A stretch of 38,002 nt of DNA. Source: Planctomycetia bacterium. Lineage in GTDB: Bacteria > Planctomycetota > Planctomycetia > Planctomycetales > Planctomycetaceae. Shown here in pieces: positions 122 through 9,098 of this stretch. The stretch lies in assembly GCA_043777235.1 (NCBI GenBank), contig JAYVQJ010000121.1:1-38002 (forward strand), in the 5' to 3' direction. The stretch's first letter is position 1, and each line of letters begins with the position of its first letter. The notes beneath the pieces were generated by a model that worked only from the letters and a program-made list of their open reading frames with translations, was not told where the DNA came from and searched no databases. The position numbers were made by a program, and so were the translations under genes.

Positions 122-1711
122 TCAATCGTGCTGAGCGAGCACGCGCTTGGTCGACTGCTTGTCAGACATCGCGCGGTTGAGCGCCTTCAAGTATGCCTCG
201 GCGCTAGCTTGGATGATGTCGGTGCTGATCCCTTTGCCGTGATACGCCTTGTCGTTGACGAGAATCTCGACAAAGGATTCTCCCTGAGCATCCTCACCGC
301 CGGTGACACTGCGAACTTGGAAGTTTCGGAGCGTCCCGGCAACTCCGGTGATCCGCTTCATCGCCAGGAAGATCGCATCGAGCGGCCCGTCGCCCGTCGC
401 GGCATCGCGGACCGGAGGATCGTTCTCGCATTGCAACTCGACAGTCGCGGTCGGGATCGTCGCGGCTCCGGCAAACGTCTGCACGCTGATCAGCTTCCAA
501 CGATCGGGCACATCACGCTCTTCGCCGACTTGAGTTTCAATGAGCGCGATGATGTCCGAGTCGTAGACGTCTTTCTTTTTGTCGCAGAGCGAGATGAACT
601 CGTCAAAGACTCGCTCGAAGACATCCGGTTCCAGCACGAAGCCCAGCGAGTTGACTCGATCGCGAAACGCATGCCGGCCGCTGTGCTTGCCCAAGACCAG
701 ATTCGTGCCGACGTAACCGACATCGTCCGGCTTCATGATCTCATAGGTCTGCCGGTTCTGGAGCATCCCGTGCTGATGGATGCCCGCCTCGTGAGCGAAC
801 GCGTTCTGTCCGACGATCGCCTTGTTGCGTTGCACGGTCATGCCCGTGATGCGGCTGACCAAGCGGCTGATCGGGAACAGCTTCGGCGTGTTGATGTTCG
901 TCTTCACACCATAAAAGTCGCCGCGCGTTTTGATTGCCATCACGATCTCTTCGAGCGCCGCGTTGCCGGCTCGTTCGCCCAAGCCGTTGATCGTGCATTC
1001 GACTTGCCGAGCACCTGCTTCGACACCGGCCAAGCTGTTCGCGACCGCCAAGCCGAGATCGTTGTGGCAGTGCGTGCTGATGACCGCCTTGCCGATGTTC
1101 GACACGTTCGCATTGAGATACTCGATGCAGCGTTTGAAGTGCGCGGGCGTCGCATAGCCGACCGTATCCGGAATGTTGACGGTCGTCGCGCCGGCGTCGA
1201 TCGCCTTCTCAACCACTTGGCACAAGAAGTCGAGCTCTGTCCGAGCCGCGTCTTCCGGCGAGAACTCCAAGTTCGGCGTCGTGATGTCCGGGCGCGAGCA
1301 CATCAAGTCGCGCGTGTATTTCACCATCTCGACCGTCGCGCGGAGGATTTCTTCCTCAGCCATCTTCAGTTTGAACTCGCGGTGAATCGGACTGGTCGCC
1401 AAGAAGACGTGAATGCGGCACTTCTCCGCTTCCTTCAACGCTTCCCACGCCCGGTCGATGTCTGGTTTACGGCAGCGAGCCAACCCGCAAATGACCGTGC
1501 GGTTGCCAAACTCGCGAGCGATCGCGCGCACCGCCTCGAAGTCGTCCGGCGACGCGATCGGGAAACCCGCTTCGATGACATCGACTCCGAGTTCCACGAG
1601 CGCCTTCGCGATCTCCAGCTTCTCGGCCGAGTTCATGCTGCAGCCCGGAGACTGCTCGCCGTCGCGCAAGGTCGTGTCGAAAATCGTGATCGTGTCAGGC
1701 TGAATGGACAT
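122..1711 (-). CDS. leuA: 2-isopropylmalate synthase
   Basis: From the ATG at 1711 the translation reads [26 protein letters not shown]..., followed by the [14 protein letters not shown] region and a LeuA regulatory C-terminus. AGGAG lies 7 nt upstream of this ATG. The 29 extra N-terminal codons of tracked ORF 122..1798 read through a palindromic repeat, so I excluded them. Confidence 0.95.
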
Positions 1712-1722
1712 CGCAAACTCCT

Positions 1723-1792
1723 GGAGGTTGGGCACTCCTGCCCGACCCGAACGGAAAGTGAAGGAAGAAGACGGGCAGGAGTGCCCATCCTC
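1723..1792. repeat. Palindromic element, family A (GGAGGATGGGCACTCCTGCCCGTC arms), copy 1
   Basis: Left arm ggaggttgggcactcctgcccg (from 1723) is the reverse complement of right arm acgggcaggagtgcccatcctcc (to 1792). The same element recurs at 6001-6065 and 9036-9098. This copy ends 11 nt upstream of the leuA ATG. Confidence 0.9.
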
Positions 1793-1796
1793 CAAC

Positions 1797-1834
1797 AAAC
1801 AAAAAAACCCTGAGCCTCCAGCGGAGGCTCAGGG
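1797..1834 (-). terminator. Rho-independent terminator (minus strand)
   Basis: The minus strand reads ccctgagcctcc-gct-ggaggctcaggg, a perfect 12-bp GC-rich stem at 1808-1834. It is followed immediately by TTTTTTTGTTTG (1796-1807). Confidence 0.8.
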
Positions 1835-1878
1835 TGTATTCGCACGGTCAACAGCGACAACGACACCAAAGCCCCGCG

Positions 1879-1932
1879 TCAACGCAGGAGAAGGCTAAGG
1901 GCAAGGGCAAGAAGTCGCAGATCGGATCGCAT
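1879..1932 (-). promoter_or_regulatory. Candidate leucine leader peptide (17 codons) of a leuA attenuator
   Basis: The minus strand reads ATG CGA TCC GAT CTG CGA CTT CTT GCC CTT GCC CTT AGC CTT CTC CTG CGT TGA, which translates to MRSDLRLLALALSLLLR. Eight of 17 codons are Leu, five of them CTT. AGGA lies about 7 nt upstream of the ATG. The stop is 44 nt upstream of the terminator stem, and leuA starts 86 nt after the T-tract. Confidence 0.45.
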
Positions 1933-2000
1933 GATGATTCCTGTCGGAAAGTGGGCGGCACTTTATCCAGCCCATTTCGGCAAGGTCAAGCCGTCAATGC

Positions 2001-2068: not shown

Positions 2069-2308
2069 TTATTGCCGCGCATCTTCCTCGACACCGGCTC
2101 GCAGCTTCTCGCGTTCGAGCTTGTATTCTTCAAAGGCCCGAATCGCTTCTGGGCCGAGATGATCGGGTCTCGTGGCAACCGGGCCATCGTGGAGGTAGTA
2201 CGGCGACGGTATGGGTGACTTGATTTCCGTCCGGCAGCCAACGGCCGACAGCAATAGCAAGCACGATATGGCAAACTCGCAGCCCCAAGCTTTCCTGTTT
2301 TGCCACAT
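2069..2308 (-). CDS. Small lipoprotein, paralog 2 (hypothetical)
   Basis: 79 aa. Signal peptide plus lipobox LLLLSAVGC. The C-terminal EEYKLEREKLRAGVEEDARQ is nearly identical to the upstream paralog. Confidence 0.7.
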   Translation of the reverse strand: MWQNRKAWGCEFAISCLLLLSAVGCRTEIKSPIPSPYYLHDGPVATRPDHLGPEAIRAFEEYKLEREKLRAGVEEDARQ

Positions 2309-2362
2309 AGCCCGACCTCTTCGCGTCGATCGACCGGACGTGGGCGTCCGGGCTACTCAGCA

Positions 2363-2611
2363 TTACTGCCGCGCGTCTTCCTCGACGCCGGCTCGCAGCT
2401 TCTCGCGATCGAGCTTGTACTCTTCGAGAGCCCGGACCTGATTGCTCAGCTTGAACTCGGGGCCGGCCGGGTAGTACTGGACGTCGTCCTTCAGATAGTA
2501 CGGGGACGGGAGCGTTTGCCCGCCGACTGATGTTTGGCAGCCGGTCGCGGCCAGCATCAAGGGGCACAACAACAACATCGTCACGCTCGCCGAGATTCCG
2601 TTCCACCGCAT
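2363..2611 (-). CDS. Small lipoprotein, paralog 1 (hypothetical)
   Basis: 82 aa. Lipobox LMLAATGC, a PSPYYLKDDVQYYPAGPEFKL core, and C-terminal EEYKLDREKLRAGVEEDARQ. Confidence 0.75.
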   Translation of the reverse strand: MRWNGISASVTMLLLCPLMLAATGCQTSVGGQTLPSPYYLKDDVQYYPAGPEFKLSNQVRALEEYKLDREKLRAGVEEDARQ

Positions 2612-6000: not shown

Positions 6001-6065
6001 GAGGATGGGCACTCTTGCCCGTCGCTCGATTCGCAATCCTGGACGGGCAAGAGTGCCCATCCTCC
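6001..6065. repeat. Palindromic element, family A, copy 2
   Basis: gaggatgggcactcttgcccgtc (6001-6023) pairs with gacgggcaagagtgcccatcctcc (6042-6065). It starts 11 nt upstream of the ATG at 5989 of the minus-strand membrane protein gene. Confidence 0.9.
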
Positions 6066-9035: not shown

Positions 9036-9098
9036 GGAGGATGGGCACTCCTGCCCGTCCCCTCCTTTCAAGACGACGGGCAAGAGTGCCCATCCTCC
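9036..9098. repeat. Palindromic element, family A, copy 3
   Basis: ggaggatgggcactcctgcccgtc (9036-9059) pairs with gacgggcaagagtgcccatcctcc (9075-9098). It starts 4 nt after the hisG stop and ends 2 nt before the next ATG. Confidence 0.9.

What the first reader, a model, noticed from the sequence alone, without database searches (positions are those of the whole stretch)
1797..1932. Leu-rich 17-codon mini-ORF plus intrinsic terminator upstream of leuA: candidate leader-peptide attenuator
On the minus strand an SD-preceded ORF encodes MRSDLRLLALALSLLLR. Eight of its 17 codons are Leu, five of them CTT, whereas neighbouring genes mostly use CTG/CTC. It ends 44 nt before a perfect 12-bp stem plus T7 terminator, and leuA starts 86 nt further on. 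The spacer segment ggggctttgg (about 1866-1875) can pair, with wobbles, with the terminator's 5' arm. The leader segment cccttagcct resembles that same arm, which would allow alternative 1:2 / 2:3 / 3:4 pairings. Ribosome-mediated leu attenuation is classical in Enterobacteria; I am not aware of it being described for this kind of genome. Two caveats apply. The terminator may simply end the upstream lipoprotein transcript. The mini-ORF could also be a decayed third lipoprotein signal peptide.
Basis: partly seen in the sequence, partly recalled or inferred. Interest (0 to 1): 0.65.

Follow-up and report, generated by a model that had tools for sequence, protein, structure and literature searches.

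The report
Leucine leader-peptide attenuator before leuA
A tiny leucine-rich gene, a switchable RNA hairpin pair and a terminator sit in front of the leucine-synthesis gene leuA of this freshwater planctomycete; the same design recurs across its whole class, so it is very probably the classical ribosome-stalling leucine sensor, which I did not find described for this phylum.

Summary
On the minus strand there is a promoter-like site (1989-1960), an AGGA-preceded 17-codon ORF (1932-1879, MRSDLRLLALALSLLLR, 8 Leu), a 13-bp hairpin plus T7 (1835-1801) and leuA (ATG 1711).

- All 15 same-genus genomes with enough upstream sequence, nearly all other Planctomycetaceae genera examined (including Schlesneria) and several other families of the class carry a Leu-rich mini-ORF plus terminator before leuA (41 of 76 regions by strict criteria).
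- Leu codons change synonymously while intervening residues vary, and indels stay in frame.
- Leaders are 41% Leu but about 1% each Ile, Val and Met.
- A TTGACN-17/18-TAnnnT promoter precedes 39 of 41 leaders.
- The upstream gene is divergent in several relatives, so the terminator does not simply end a neighbour's transcript.
- A segment at or just after the stop codon pairs with the terminator's 5' arm. In most genera the UAG lies inside that strand.

Masked folding gives the antiterminator when a ribosome sits on Leu codons and none when it sits on the stop. No Rfam family matches, and I found no description for Planctomycetes.

Verdict: a new lineage-specific member of a well-known kind. 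There is no expression evidence yet.

The parts
1960..1989 (-). Sigma-70-type promoter: -35 TTGACC (1989-1984), 18-nt spacer, -10 TAAAGT (1965-1960). The predicted transcript start is about 20 nt before the leader ATG.
   Evidence: The consensus scan found it. It is conserved in all same-genus sequences. TTGACN-17/18-TAnnnT lies within 140 nt upstream of 39 of 41 leaders, against 7 of 2000 random genome segments.
1939..1942 (-). Shine-Dalgarno-like AGGA, 6 nt before the leader ATG.
   Evidence: Seen directly in the sequence. It is conserved as AGGAA or AAGGA in the genus.
1879..1932 (-). Leader peptide ORF of 17 codons plus TGA: MRSDLRLLALALSLLLR. The Leu codons start at 1920, 1914, 1911, 1905, 1899, 1893, 1890 and 1887.
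   Evidence: Within the genus, Leu positions use CTT, CTC, CTG and TTG interchangeably while the residue between them varies (A/D/S/G). The 6-nt and 3-nt indels stay in frame.
1886..1908 (-). Segment 1 (anti-antiterminator). It lies inside the leader coding region, contains CCCTTAGCCT (1901-1892), which mimics the terminator's 5' arm, and pairs with segment 2 when no ribosome is present.
   Evidence: Minimum-free-energy folds of the full and nascent leader without a ribosome.
1863..1877 (-). Segment 2 (5' strand of the antiterminator): GCGGGGCUUUGGUGU, starting 2 nt after the stop codon.
   Evidence: It is nearly invariant in the genus. Its duplex with segment 3 scores -18.3 kcal/mol, reached by 1% of shuffles.
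1821..1837 (-). Segment 3: ACACCCUGAGCCUCCGC. It is shared by the antiterminator (with segment 2) and the terminator (with segment 4).
   Evidence: The CCCUGAG core is conserved across the class.
1801..1835 (-). Intrinsic terminator: 13-bp stem (1835-1823 with 1819-1807), loop GCT, T7 run (1807-1801). The hairpin energy is -24.9 kcal/mol.
   Evidence: Stem bases are invariant or compensated in relatives.
1722..1795 (.). A 74-nt palindromic repeat element (arms GGGCACTCCTGCCCG) inserted between the attenuator and the leuA ribosome-binding site. It is not part of the conserved attenuator.
   Evidence: Six arm copies occur in the window against 0.13 expected. Most relatives have a different palindrome, or nothing, at this position.
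122..1711 (-). leuA (2-isopropylmalate synthase, 529 aa), the regulated gene. AGGAG lies at 1722-1718.
   Evidence: Pfam HMGL-like (3.7e-96), HCS_D2 and LeuA_dimer. Orthologues are 87-96% identical within the genus.

Best explanation
This is a ribosome-mediated (leader-peptide) transcription attenuator that sets leuA expression according to the supply of charged tRNA-Leu.

Proposed mechanism:
1. Transcription starts at the TTGACC/TAAAGT promoter, and a ribosome translates the 17-codon leader while RNA polymerase moves on.
2. With ample Leu-tRNA, the ribosome reaches the UGA stop (1881-1879). Its footprint covers segment 2 (1877-1863). Segment 3 is then free to pair with segment 4, the terminator forms, and transcription stops at the T7 run before leuA.
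3. When Leu-tRNA is scarce, the ribosome stalls on one of the eight Leu codons (1920-1887). That holds segment 1 and leaves segment 2 free. Segment 2 pairs with segment 3 as soon as segment 3 is made (about -27 kcal/mol including an inner hairpin). The terminator cannot form, and polymerase reads through into leuA.
4. Without any ribosome, segment 1 pairs with segment 2 and the terminator forms.

Shown here: the sequence elements, their conservation, codon-level selection on Leu, the alternative pairings, and the presence of an own promoter consensus. Inferred: translation of the leader, coupling of translation to transcription, and the response to leucine.
For: (1) Conservation with leuA. A Leu-rich mini-ORF followed by a terminator lies upstream of leuA in all 15 same-genus genomes that have enough upstream sequence. 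It is also present in nearly all other Planctomycetaceae genera examined, including the complete genome of Schlesneria sp. T3-172, and in several other families of the class. By strict criteria 41 of 76 regions qualify, and further weaker variants were seen by eye.

(2) Signature of translation and of selection on Leu only.
- Within the genus, Leu positions use four synonymous codons while the residue between them varies A/D/S/G.
- Indels are multiples of 3 nt.
- Across 36 distinct leaders, Leu is 41% of residues, against 10% in the genome. Ile is 1%, Val 0.5%, Met 0.8% and Phe 1.9%. The peptides are therefore not signal-peptide-like or membrane-helix-like.

(3) Own promoter. TTGACN-17/18-TAnnnT occurs in 39 of 41 leaders against 0.35% of random segments. 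The upstream genes are divergent in several relatives.

(4) Antiterminator.
- The segment at or after the stop codon pairs with the terminator's 5' arm, with a mean z-score of -2.0 against dinucleotide shuffles. In 25 of 41 cases at most 5% of shuffles score as well.
- On a 13-sequence multi-genus alignment the helix is 87.7% paired, and 4 of 9 pairs have changes on both sides. Sliding the partner by one column gives 57-66% paired, and only 5 of 500 shuffles reach the covariation score.
- In most genera the UAG stop lies inside that strand (GGUCUUAGGG pairing with CCCUGAGACC).

(5) Masked folding of the window's leader. With a ribosome at the stop codon there is no antiterminator. With a ribosome at Leu codons 8-16 the antiterminator forms in the nascent RNA. 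With no ribosome, segments 1 and 2 pair and the terminator forms.

(6) Specificity. In whole-genome scans of the window's own assembly, this was the only strongly Leu-rich leader in front of an amino-acid biosynthesis gene.
Against: There are no expression data. The only RNA evidence is low-depth metatranscriptome contigs from relatives. One 500-nt contig runs from the leader through the terminator into leuA. Two short contigs cover only the leader but also extend upstream of the predicted -35 box, so they neither confirm the promoter nor show attenuated transcripts.

In full-length equilibrium folds the terminator always wins, so the switch must be kinetic, as it is in the classical cases.

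Per-sequence antiterminator statistics are modest: 16 of 41 are not significant on their own.

Shine-Dalgarno motifs are weak or absent before many leaders outside the genus.

A few relatives have Leu-poor leaders (for example MKHDAFRLPSLLAC), and one (L055) lacks the element.
Confidence: 0.85

Rival explanations
1. The hairpin plus T7 is only the terminator of the upstream tandem lipoprotein genes, and the Leu-rich mini-ORF is a chance ORF.
For: In the window, and in the closest relative read in full (G015), two small lipoprotein genes lie upstream on the same strand. Two metatranscriptome contigs extend upstream of the predicted promoter.
Against: The element stays with leuA where the upstream gene is different and on the opposite strand: Schlesneria, G021 and L056. 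A conserved promoter lies between the upstream gene and the mini-ORF. The ORF is conserved at the codon level. An ORF with 8 or more Leu is rare in shuffles, 16 of 3000.
Confidence: 0.03
2. The mini-ORF is the decayed signal peptide of a third lipoprotein paralogue.
For: It sits directly after two tandem lipoprotein paralogues and is hydrophobic.
Against: The same kind of ORF is present before leuA in genera and families in which none of the upstream neighbours examined is such a lipoprotein gene. Its composition is Leu-only rather than the mixed A/V/I/L/G/C of the neighbouring lipoprotein signal peptides. It has no lipobox. It ends at a conserved stop placed next to, or inside, the antiterminator.
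Confidence: 0.01
3. The leader is a conditional terminator that senses something other than a translating ribosome, such as an RNA-binding protein, uncharged tRNA or a metabolite. On this view the ORF is not translated.
For: The terminator/antiterminator alternative is equally compatible with protein- or ligand-controlled attenuation. Shine-Dalgarno motifs are weak in many relatives. No translation data exist.
Against: Conservation is at the level of Leu codons, not nucleotides. Across families the leader sequences are unalignable, yet each keeps an ORF with runs of 3-5 Leu that ends at the antiterminator. No T-box, riboswitch or other Rfam family matches, even at E up to 10.
Confidence: 0.07
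4. The mini-ORF is translated but acts differently. Options are a uORF that controls leuA translation or Rho-dependent polarity, or a small hydrophobic peptide with its own function.
For: uORFs with such roles exist in Actinobacteria and Proteobacteria (PMC4833913, PMC10272879). The palindrome at 1722-1795 abuts the leuA ribosome-binding site.
Against: A canonical intrinsic terminator and a competing helix are conserved, which these models do not need. The distance from leader stop to leuA start is long and variable, and it is filled by unrelated repeats. Only the Leu residues of the peptide are conserved.
Confidence: 0.04

Closest known systems
leu operon leader of Escherichia coli and Salmonella (leuL; Rfam Leu_leader RF00512)
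   Same: Both have a short leader ORF with clustered Leu codons, an intrinsic terminator before leuA, and an antiterminator that competes for the terminator's 5' arm. Both use a ribosome-position logic (established knowledge, summarised in PMC5314783).
   Different: There is no detectable sequence or structure homology: Rfam gives no hit at E up to 10. The peptide is shorter (15-21 codons) and its Leu codons are spread over the whole length (7-8 of 15-17) rather than forming one run of four. In most Planctomycetia genera the stop codon is part of the antiterminator strand. The regulated unit starts with a lone leuA rather than leuABCD; what lies downstream is not visible in the window.
Leucine leaders before leuA in Actinobacteria (predicted; Seliverstov et al. 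2005, PMC1262725) and in Streptococcus (Millman et al. 2017, PMC5314783)
   Same: These are independent, lineage-specific leuA leaders with Leu-rich uORFs and terminator/antiterminator alternatives. They were recognised by comparative genomics or Term-seq, and they share no sequence with the E. coli leader.
   Different: They come from different phyla and have unrelated sequences. The present one has a class-wide conserved CCCUGAG terminator arm paired to the stop-codon context CUUAGGG. I did not find that arrangement mentioned for those groups.
trp operon attenuator (trpL), the four-segment model
   Same: The window's copy has four segments (1:2, 2:3, 3:4), with segment 1 inside the leader ORF and the stop codon just before segment 2.
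   Different: The regulatory codons are Leu, not Trp. In the other genera, segment 2 overlaps the stop codon, so a three-segment scheme would suffice there.

Membership tests
Leader-peptide (ribosome-mediated) transcription attenuators of amino-acid biosynthesis genes | A short ORF enriched in codons for the amino acid made by the downstream pathway. | tested here: met
   There are 8 Leu in 17 codons before leuA. Thirty-six distinct orthologous leaders are 41% Leu. Leu identity is kept through synonymous codon changes.
Leader-peptide (ribosome-mediated) transcription attenuators of amino-acid biosynthesis genes | An intrinsic terminator between the leader ORF and the structural gene, inside the same transcription unit. 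| tested here: met
   A 13-bp stem plus T7 lies at 1835-1801. A promoter consensus lies upstream of the leader in 39 of 41 cases. Upstream genes are divergent in several relatives.
Leader-peptide (ribosome-mediated) transcription attenuators of amino-acid biosynthesis genes | A mutually exclusive antiterminator helix that uses the terminator's 5' arm. | tested here: met
   1877-1863 pairs with 1837-1821.
Leader-peptide (ribosome-mediated) transcription attenuators of amino-acid biosynthesis genes | Geometry: a ribosome at the stop codon masks the antiterminator, and a ribosome stalled on the regulatory codons leaves it free. | tested here: met
   The stop codon is 2 nt before segment 2 in the window and inside it in other genera. 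Masked folds behave as required.
Leader-peptide (ribosome-mediated) transcription attenuators of amino-acid biosynthesis genes | Read-through increases when the cognate charged tRNA is limiting, and this depends on leader translation. | not testable with these tools
   Only low-depth metatranscriptome contigs from relatives are available, and they are inconclusive.
Rfam Leu_leader (RF00512) and Leu/phe leader (RF01743) | A match to the family covariance model. | tested here: not met
   cmscan of 1500-2800 at E up to 10 lists neither family; it returns only chance microRNA-like hits on the palindrome. The element works like these leaders but is not a member of those sequence families.
T-box leader (RF00230) | A match to the T-box model (specifier loop and T-box sequence). 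| tested here: not met
   No hit at E up to 10.

The most novel reading that the evidence does not exclude
Ribosome-sensed attenuation of leuA is ancestral to, and under selection across, the class Planctomycetia. It exists there in a minimal form in which the leader's UAG stop codon is itself part of the antiterminator strand (CUUAGGG paired to the terminator's CCCUGAG). The terminating ribosome therefore acts directly as the anti-antiterminator. The genus of this window has shifted to a four-segment version.

The mechanism needs a ribosome close behind RNA polymerase. Its class-wide conservation would therefore be genetic evidence that transcription and translation are coupled in planctomycetes, a group whose cell compartmentalisation has been debated (PMC5394234, PMC5287468). 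It would also give a simple reporter with which to test that coupling.
Probability: 0.45. Interest if true: 0.55.

Novelty: new member of a known kind. Interest (0 to 1): 0.42.

Why it matters
Gene regulation in Planctomycetes is almost unexplored, and most of the genomes here are uncultured lake and sediment assemblies.

- A conserved leader of about 150 nt with a clear logic gives an annotatable cis-regulatory element for leuA across the class.
- It is a natural leucine-responsive switch for genetic tools in tractable planctomycetes.
- It is indirect evidence that translation follows transcription closely in these cells.
- It adds another independent origin of leucine leaders, showing again how easily this design evolves.

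It does not change what is known about how attenuation works.

Tried and rejected
Rfam search at a permissive threshold found no leader, T-box or riboswitch, only chance microRNA-like hits on the palindrome.

Literature searches for leader-peptide attenuation in Planctomycetes found nothing specific. Lopatovskaya et al. 2010, the broadest survey of classical attenuation, is not held, so a prior prediction there cannot be excluded.

Two genome-wide scans of the window's own assembly looked for other leader peptides (Trp, His, Phe, Thr, Ile, Val, Leu and others) before terminators and long ORFs. They gave only noise apart from leuA. One Thr-rich hit (C1072) turned out to be the 3' end of a gene at a bidirectional terminator.

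The RNA evidence is inconclusive. No run contains the organism's own RNA, and contigs from relatives do not settle the question.

I did not build a covariance model. The leaders of different genera are too dissimilar in sequence and spacing for one model, and the direct survey of leuA upstream regions answered the distribution question.

I could not name the non-Planctomycetaceae families, because the genome handles are anonymous. Whether Gemmata-type organisms carry the element therefore remains open.

Full report
WHAT IS THERE

All coordinates are on the minus strand. In order, the region contains:
- a sigma-70-like promoter, TTGACC (1989-1984), an 18-nt spacer and TAAAGT (1965-1960);
- AGGA (1942-1939);
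- a 17-codon ORF from ATG 1932 to TGA 1881-1879 that encodes MRSDLRLLALALSLLLR;
- a 44-nt spacer;
- a 13-bp hairpin (1835-1807, loop GCT) ending in T7 (1807-1801);
- a 74-nt palindrome (1795-1722);
- AGGAG (1722-1718);
- the leuA start at 1711.

LeuA is confirmed by Pfam HMGL-like, HCS_D2 and LeuA_dimer. The only numerical slip is the distance from the T-run to leuA, which is 89 nt rather than 86.

The large palindrome is a genome repeat. The arm GGGCACTCCTGCCCG occurs six times in the window against 0.13 expected. In most relatives it is replaced by other palindromes or is absent, so it is not part of the regulatory element.

WHOSE GENOME

The window is a contig of a fragmented assembly (6.8 Mb, 1236 contigs, 87% complete). 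Named public relatives with 87-96% identical LeuA are lake and sediment metagenome-assembled genomes labelled Planctomyces sp., Planctomycetaceae or Planctomycetia. The next tier, at 65-72% identity, includes Schlesneria. The organism is therefore an uncultured freshwater member of the Planctomycetaceae, class Planctomycetia.

CONSERVATION

I aligned the leuA upstream regions of 17 same-genus genomes, two of which are cut short before the mini-ORF. The promoter, the Shine-Dalgarno motif, the ATG, the mini-ORF, the spacer block TTGGTGTCGTTG and the terminator are conserved. The flanks are not.

The ORF keeps its frame through a 6-nt indel and a 3-nt indel. The window carries an extra CTTGCC, a tandem duplication that adds Leu-Ala. 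Two stop contexts occur (CGT TGA and CCA TAG).

In the last 11 codons, two Leu positions use CTT, CTC, CTG and TTG interchangeably and are Leu wherever that register holds (the window's extra CTTGCC shifts its own register). The residue between them is A, D, S or G. That is selection on the Leu codons themselves, not on a peptide fold or on the nucleotide sequence.

Outside the genus the nucleotide sequence is unalignable, but the design persists. Examples:

| Leader peptide | Source |
|---|---|
| MNCLLLRNLLLELTLTRERS | not specified |
| MQYLNLLSLLLPGLLLCGGA | not specified |
| MPAFNLSLLLLLGNTQPS | not specified |
| MNSSILLLPLLLSLPPQRGS | not specified |
| MTPFSFLLLGLLAR | Schlesneria sp. T3-172, complete genome |
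| MMTSRRALLGLLLLKPR | other families |
| MPNLPLLLKLLRLRPGR | other families |
| MPCISLLPLLLLTGLRP | other families |

Each is followed within 20-60 nt by a hairpin plus T-run before leuA.

Strict criteria were: at least 4 Leu, at least 25% Leu, a Leu-Leu pair, and a stop within 75 nt of a terminator. By these, 41 of 76 leuA upstream regions qualify. The breakdown is:
- all of the genus;
- nearly all of the family, where L056 was rescued by eye, L049 has a Leu-poor variant and L055 lacks the element;
- most sampled families of the class;
- only scattered cases in the rest of the phylum.

Gammaproteobacterial, Sumerlaeota, Firmicutes and other outgroups picked up by the same search do not show it.

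The 36 distinct leaders are 41% Leu. They are 1.0% Ile, 0.5% Val, 0.8% Met, 1.9% Phe and 4.4% Ala. Leu is about 10% of residues in long ORFs of the genome.

IT IS THE 5' END OF THE leuA TRANSCRIPTION UNIT

A TTGACN-17/18-TAnnnT motif lies within 140 nt upstream of 39 of 41 leaders. It occurs in 7 of 2000 random 140-nt segments of the genome.

In Schlesneria (L054, L049), G021 (L022) and L056, the nearest upstream gene is on the opposite strand. These are real genes: enolase-superfamily, sulfatase and DUF1501.

The terminator therefore cannot be there merely to end an upstream gene, and the mini-ORF cannot be a relic of the lipoprotein paralogues that happen to lie upstream in this genus.

THE SWITCH

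In the window, GCGGGGCUUUGGUGU (1877-1863, starting 2 nt after the stop codon) pairs with ACACCCUGAGCCUCCGC (1837-1821), which is the terminator's 5' arm plus a few flanking bases. The duplex energy is -18.3 kcal/mol, reached by 1% of dinucleotide shuffles. The nascent-RNA structure that includes a small inner hairpin is -27.3 kcal/mol, against -24.9 for the terminator.

Inside the ORF, CCCUUAGCCU (1901-1892) matches the terminator arm at 9 of 10 positions. In ribosome-free folds it pairs with the same G-rich segment. This gives the classical 1:2, 2:3 and 3:4 arrangement.

Folding with a 31-nt stretch held unpaired to imitate a ribosome gave these results:
- With the A site on the stop codon, segment 2 is covered and no antiterminator forms.
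- With the A site on any of Leu codons 8-16, the antiterminator is the minimum-free-energy structure of the RNA that exists before the terminator's 3' arm is transcribed.

In full-length equilibrium folds the terminator always forms, so control must be kinetic. The same is true of the textbook attenuators.

In most other genera the logic is even simpler. The leader ends in ...GGUCUUAGG(G), and this string, with the UAG stop inside it, is complementary to the conserved terminator arm CCCUGAGACC. On a MAFFT alignment of 13 such sequences from several genera and families, which was not fitted to the structure, the 9-bp helix behaves as follows:
- 87.7% of cells are paired.
- 4 of 9 pairs have changes on both sides.
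- Pairing falls to 57-66% when the partner is slid by one column and to 18-48% for larger slides.
- Only 5 of 500 column shuffles reach the observed covariation score.

Over all 41 leaders, the mean z-score of the pairing against shuffles is -2.0, and 25 are at or below the 5% level individually.

SPECIFICITY WITHIN THE GENOME

Two scans of the whole assembly looked for short ORFs enriched in one amino acid that end just before a terminator-like site and are followed by a long ORF. They recovered the leuA leader and nothing else convincing. No analogous Trp, His, Phe, Thr or Ile/Val leaders were seen. The assembly is incomplete, however, and the scans were crude.

THE CODON-USAGE POINT

CTT is 8.5% of Leu codons in long ORFs, and the window's leader has 5 CTT among 8 Leu codons. 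Relatives use CTG, CTC and TTG freely at most positions. Only the CTT-AGC-CTT-CTC-CTG block is fixed in part of the genus, and that block lies in segment 1, where RNA pairing may constrain it. I therefore do not regard rare-codon use as a conserved feature.

WHAT IS NOT SHOWN

No RNA data exist for this organism. Metatranscriptome contigs from roughly 90%-similar relatives include one 500-nt contig that runs from the leader through the terminator into leuA. That is compatible with read-through transcripts.

Two short contigs cover only the leader. They also extend beyond the predicted -35 box, and these are low-depth assemblies without strand information. They neither support nor contradict the model.

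COMPARISON WITH KNOWN SYSTEMS

Functionally this is the same kind of device as the following:
- the enterobacterial leu leader;
- the leuA leaders predicted in Actinobacteria (PMC1262725);
- the leuA leaders found by Term-seq-guided prediction in Streptococcus (PMC5314783).

It is not a member of the Rfam Leu_leader, Leu/phe-leader or T-box families.

Searches of the held literature found no description of leader-peptide attenuation of leuA, or of any amino-acid operon, in Planctomycetes. The one paper that mentions the phylum deals with uORF-to-gene distances (PMC4833913). The broad survey by Lopatovskaya et al. (2010) could not be read.

Earlier notes of this scan list similar Leu leaders in about 300 genomes of other lineages. 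This underlines that the design is common and arises repeatedly.

VERDICT

This is a new, lineage-specific member of a well-known regulatory class.

Its modest added interest has three sources:
- its class-wide conservation in a phylum with almost no characterised gene regulation;
- the placement of the stop codon inside the antiterminator;
- the implication that translation is coupled to transcription in planctomycetes.

Noticed in passing
window 1722-1795 (also 6007-6058 and 9043-9091): A palindromic repeat with arms GGGCACTCCTGCCCG sits between the attenuator and the leuA ribosome-binding site, abutting AGGAG. In relatives the same spot holds this family (G009, G013), a different palindrome family (CTCGCTGGCGCGGC..., most of the genus) or nothing. 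The attenuator-to-leuA spacer therefore looks like a hot spot for such insertions.
   Followed up: partly
window 1897-1908: The window's leader carries an in-frame tandem duplication of CTTGCC (Leu-Ala) that is absent from all 14 other same-genus leaders. It raises the Leu count from 7 to 8.
   Followed up: yes
window 2069-2611 (minus strand): Two tandem small lipoprotein-like paralogues (82 and 79 aa) have near-identical C-terminal ends (EEYKL-REKLRAGVEEDARQ) and matching downstream hairpins. Neither has a Pfam match.
   Followed up: no
L082, L085, L109 (leuA upstream regions of G075, G145, G041): The predicted -10 box ends only 6 nt before the leader start codon, so these leader peptides may be translated from leaderless mRNAs.
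   Followed up: no
L055 (JBKECA010000084.1, Planctomycetaceae MAG): No leader or terminator is present. Another ORF ends about 50 nt before leuA. The element appears to have been lost or displaced in this lineage.
   Followed up: no
G000 contigs C618:468-1538 and C355:204-1274: The genome holds two further HMGL-type LeuA paralogues, 46-48% identical over residues 7-370. No LeuA_dimer region was matched. They may be citramalate- or homocitrate-synthase-like.
   Followed up: no
G095:C1:2476776-2478290 and G112:C1:4506845-4508359: The leuA matches in two complete same-family genomes are reported with one in-frame TAA. It may only be the natural stop overrun by the alignment; I did not check.
   Followed up: no
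window 1842-1998, metatranscriptome runs X21, X22, X26: Freshwater and riverine metatranscriptome assemblies contain contigs of about 90%-similar leaders. One 500-nt contig joins the leader, the terminator and the leuA 5' end, with a different 114-nt insert in place of the palindrome.
   Followed up: partly
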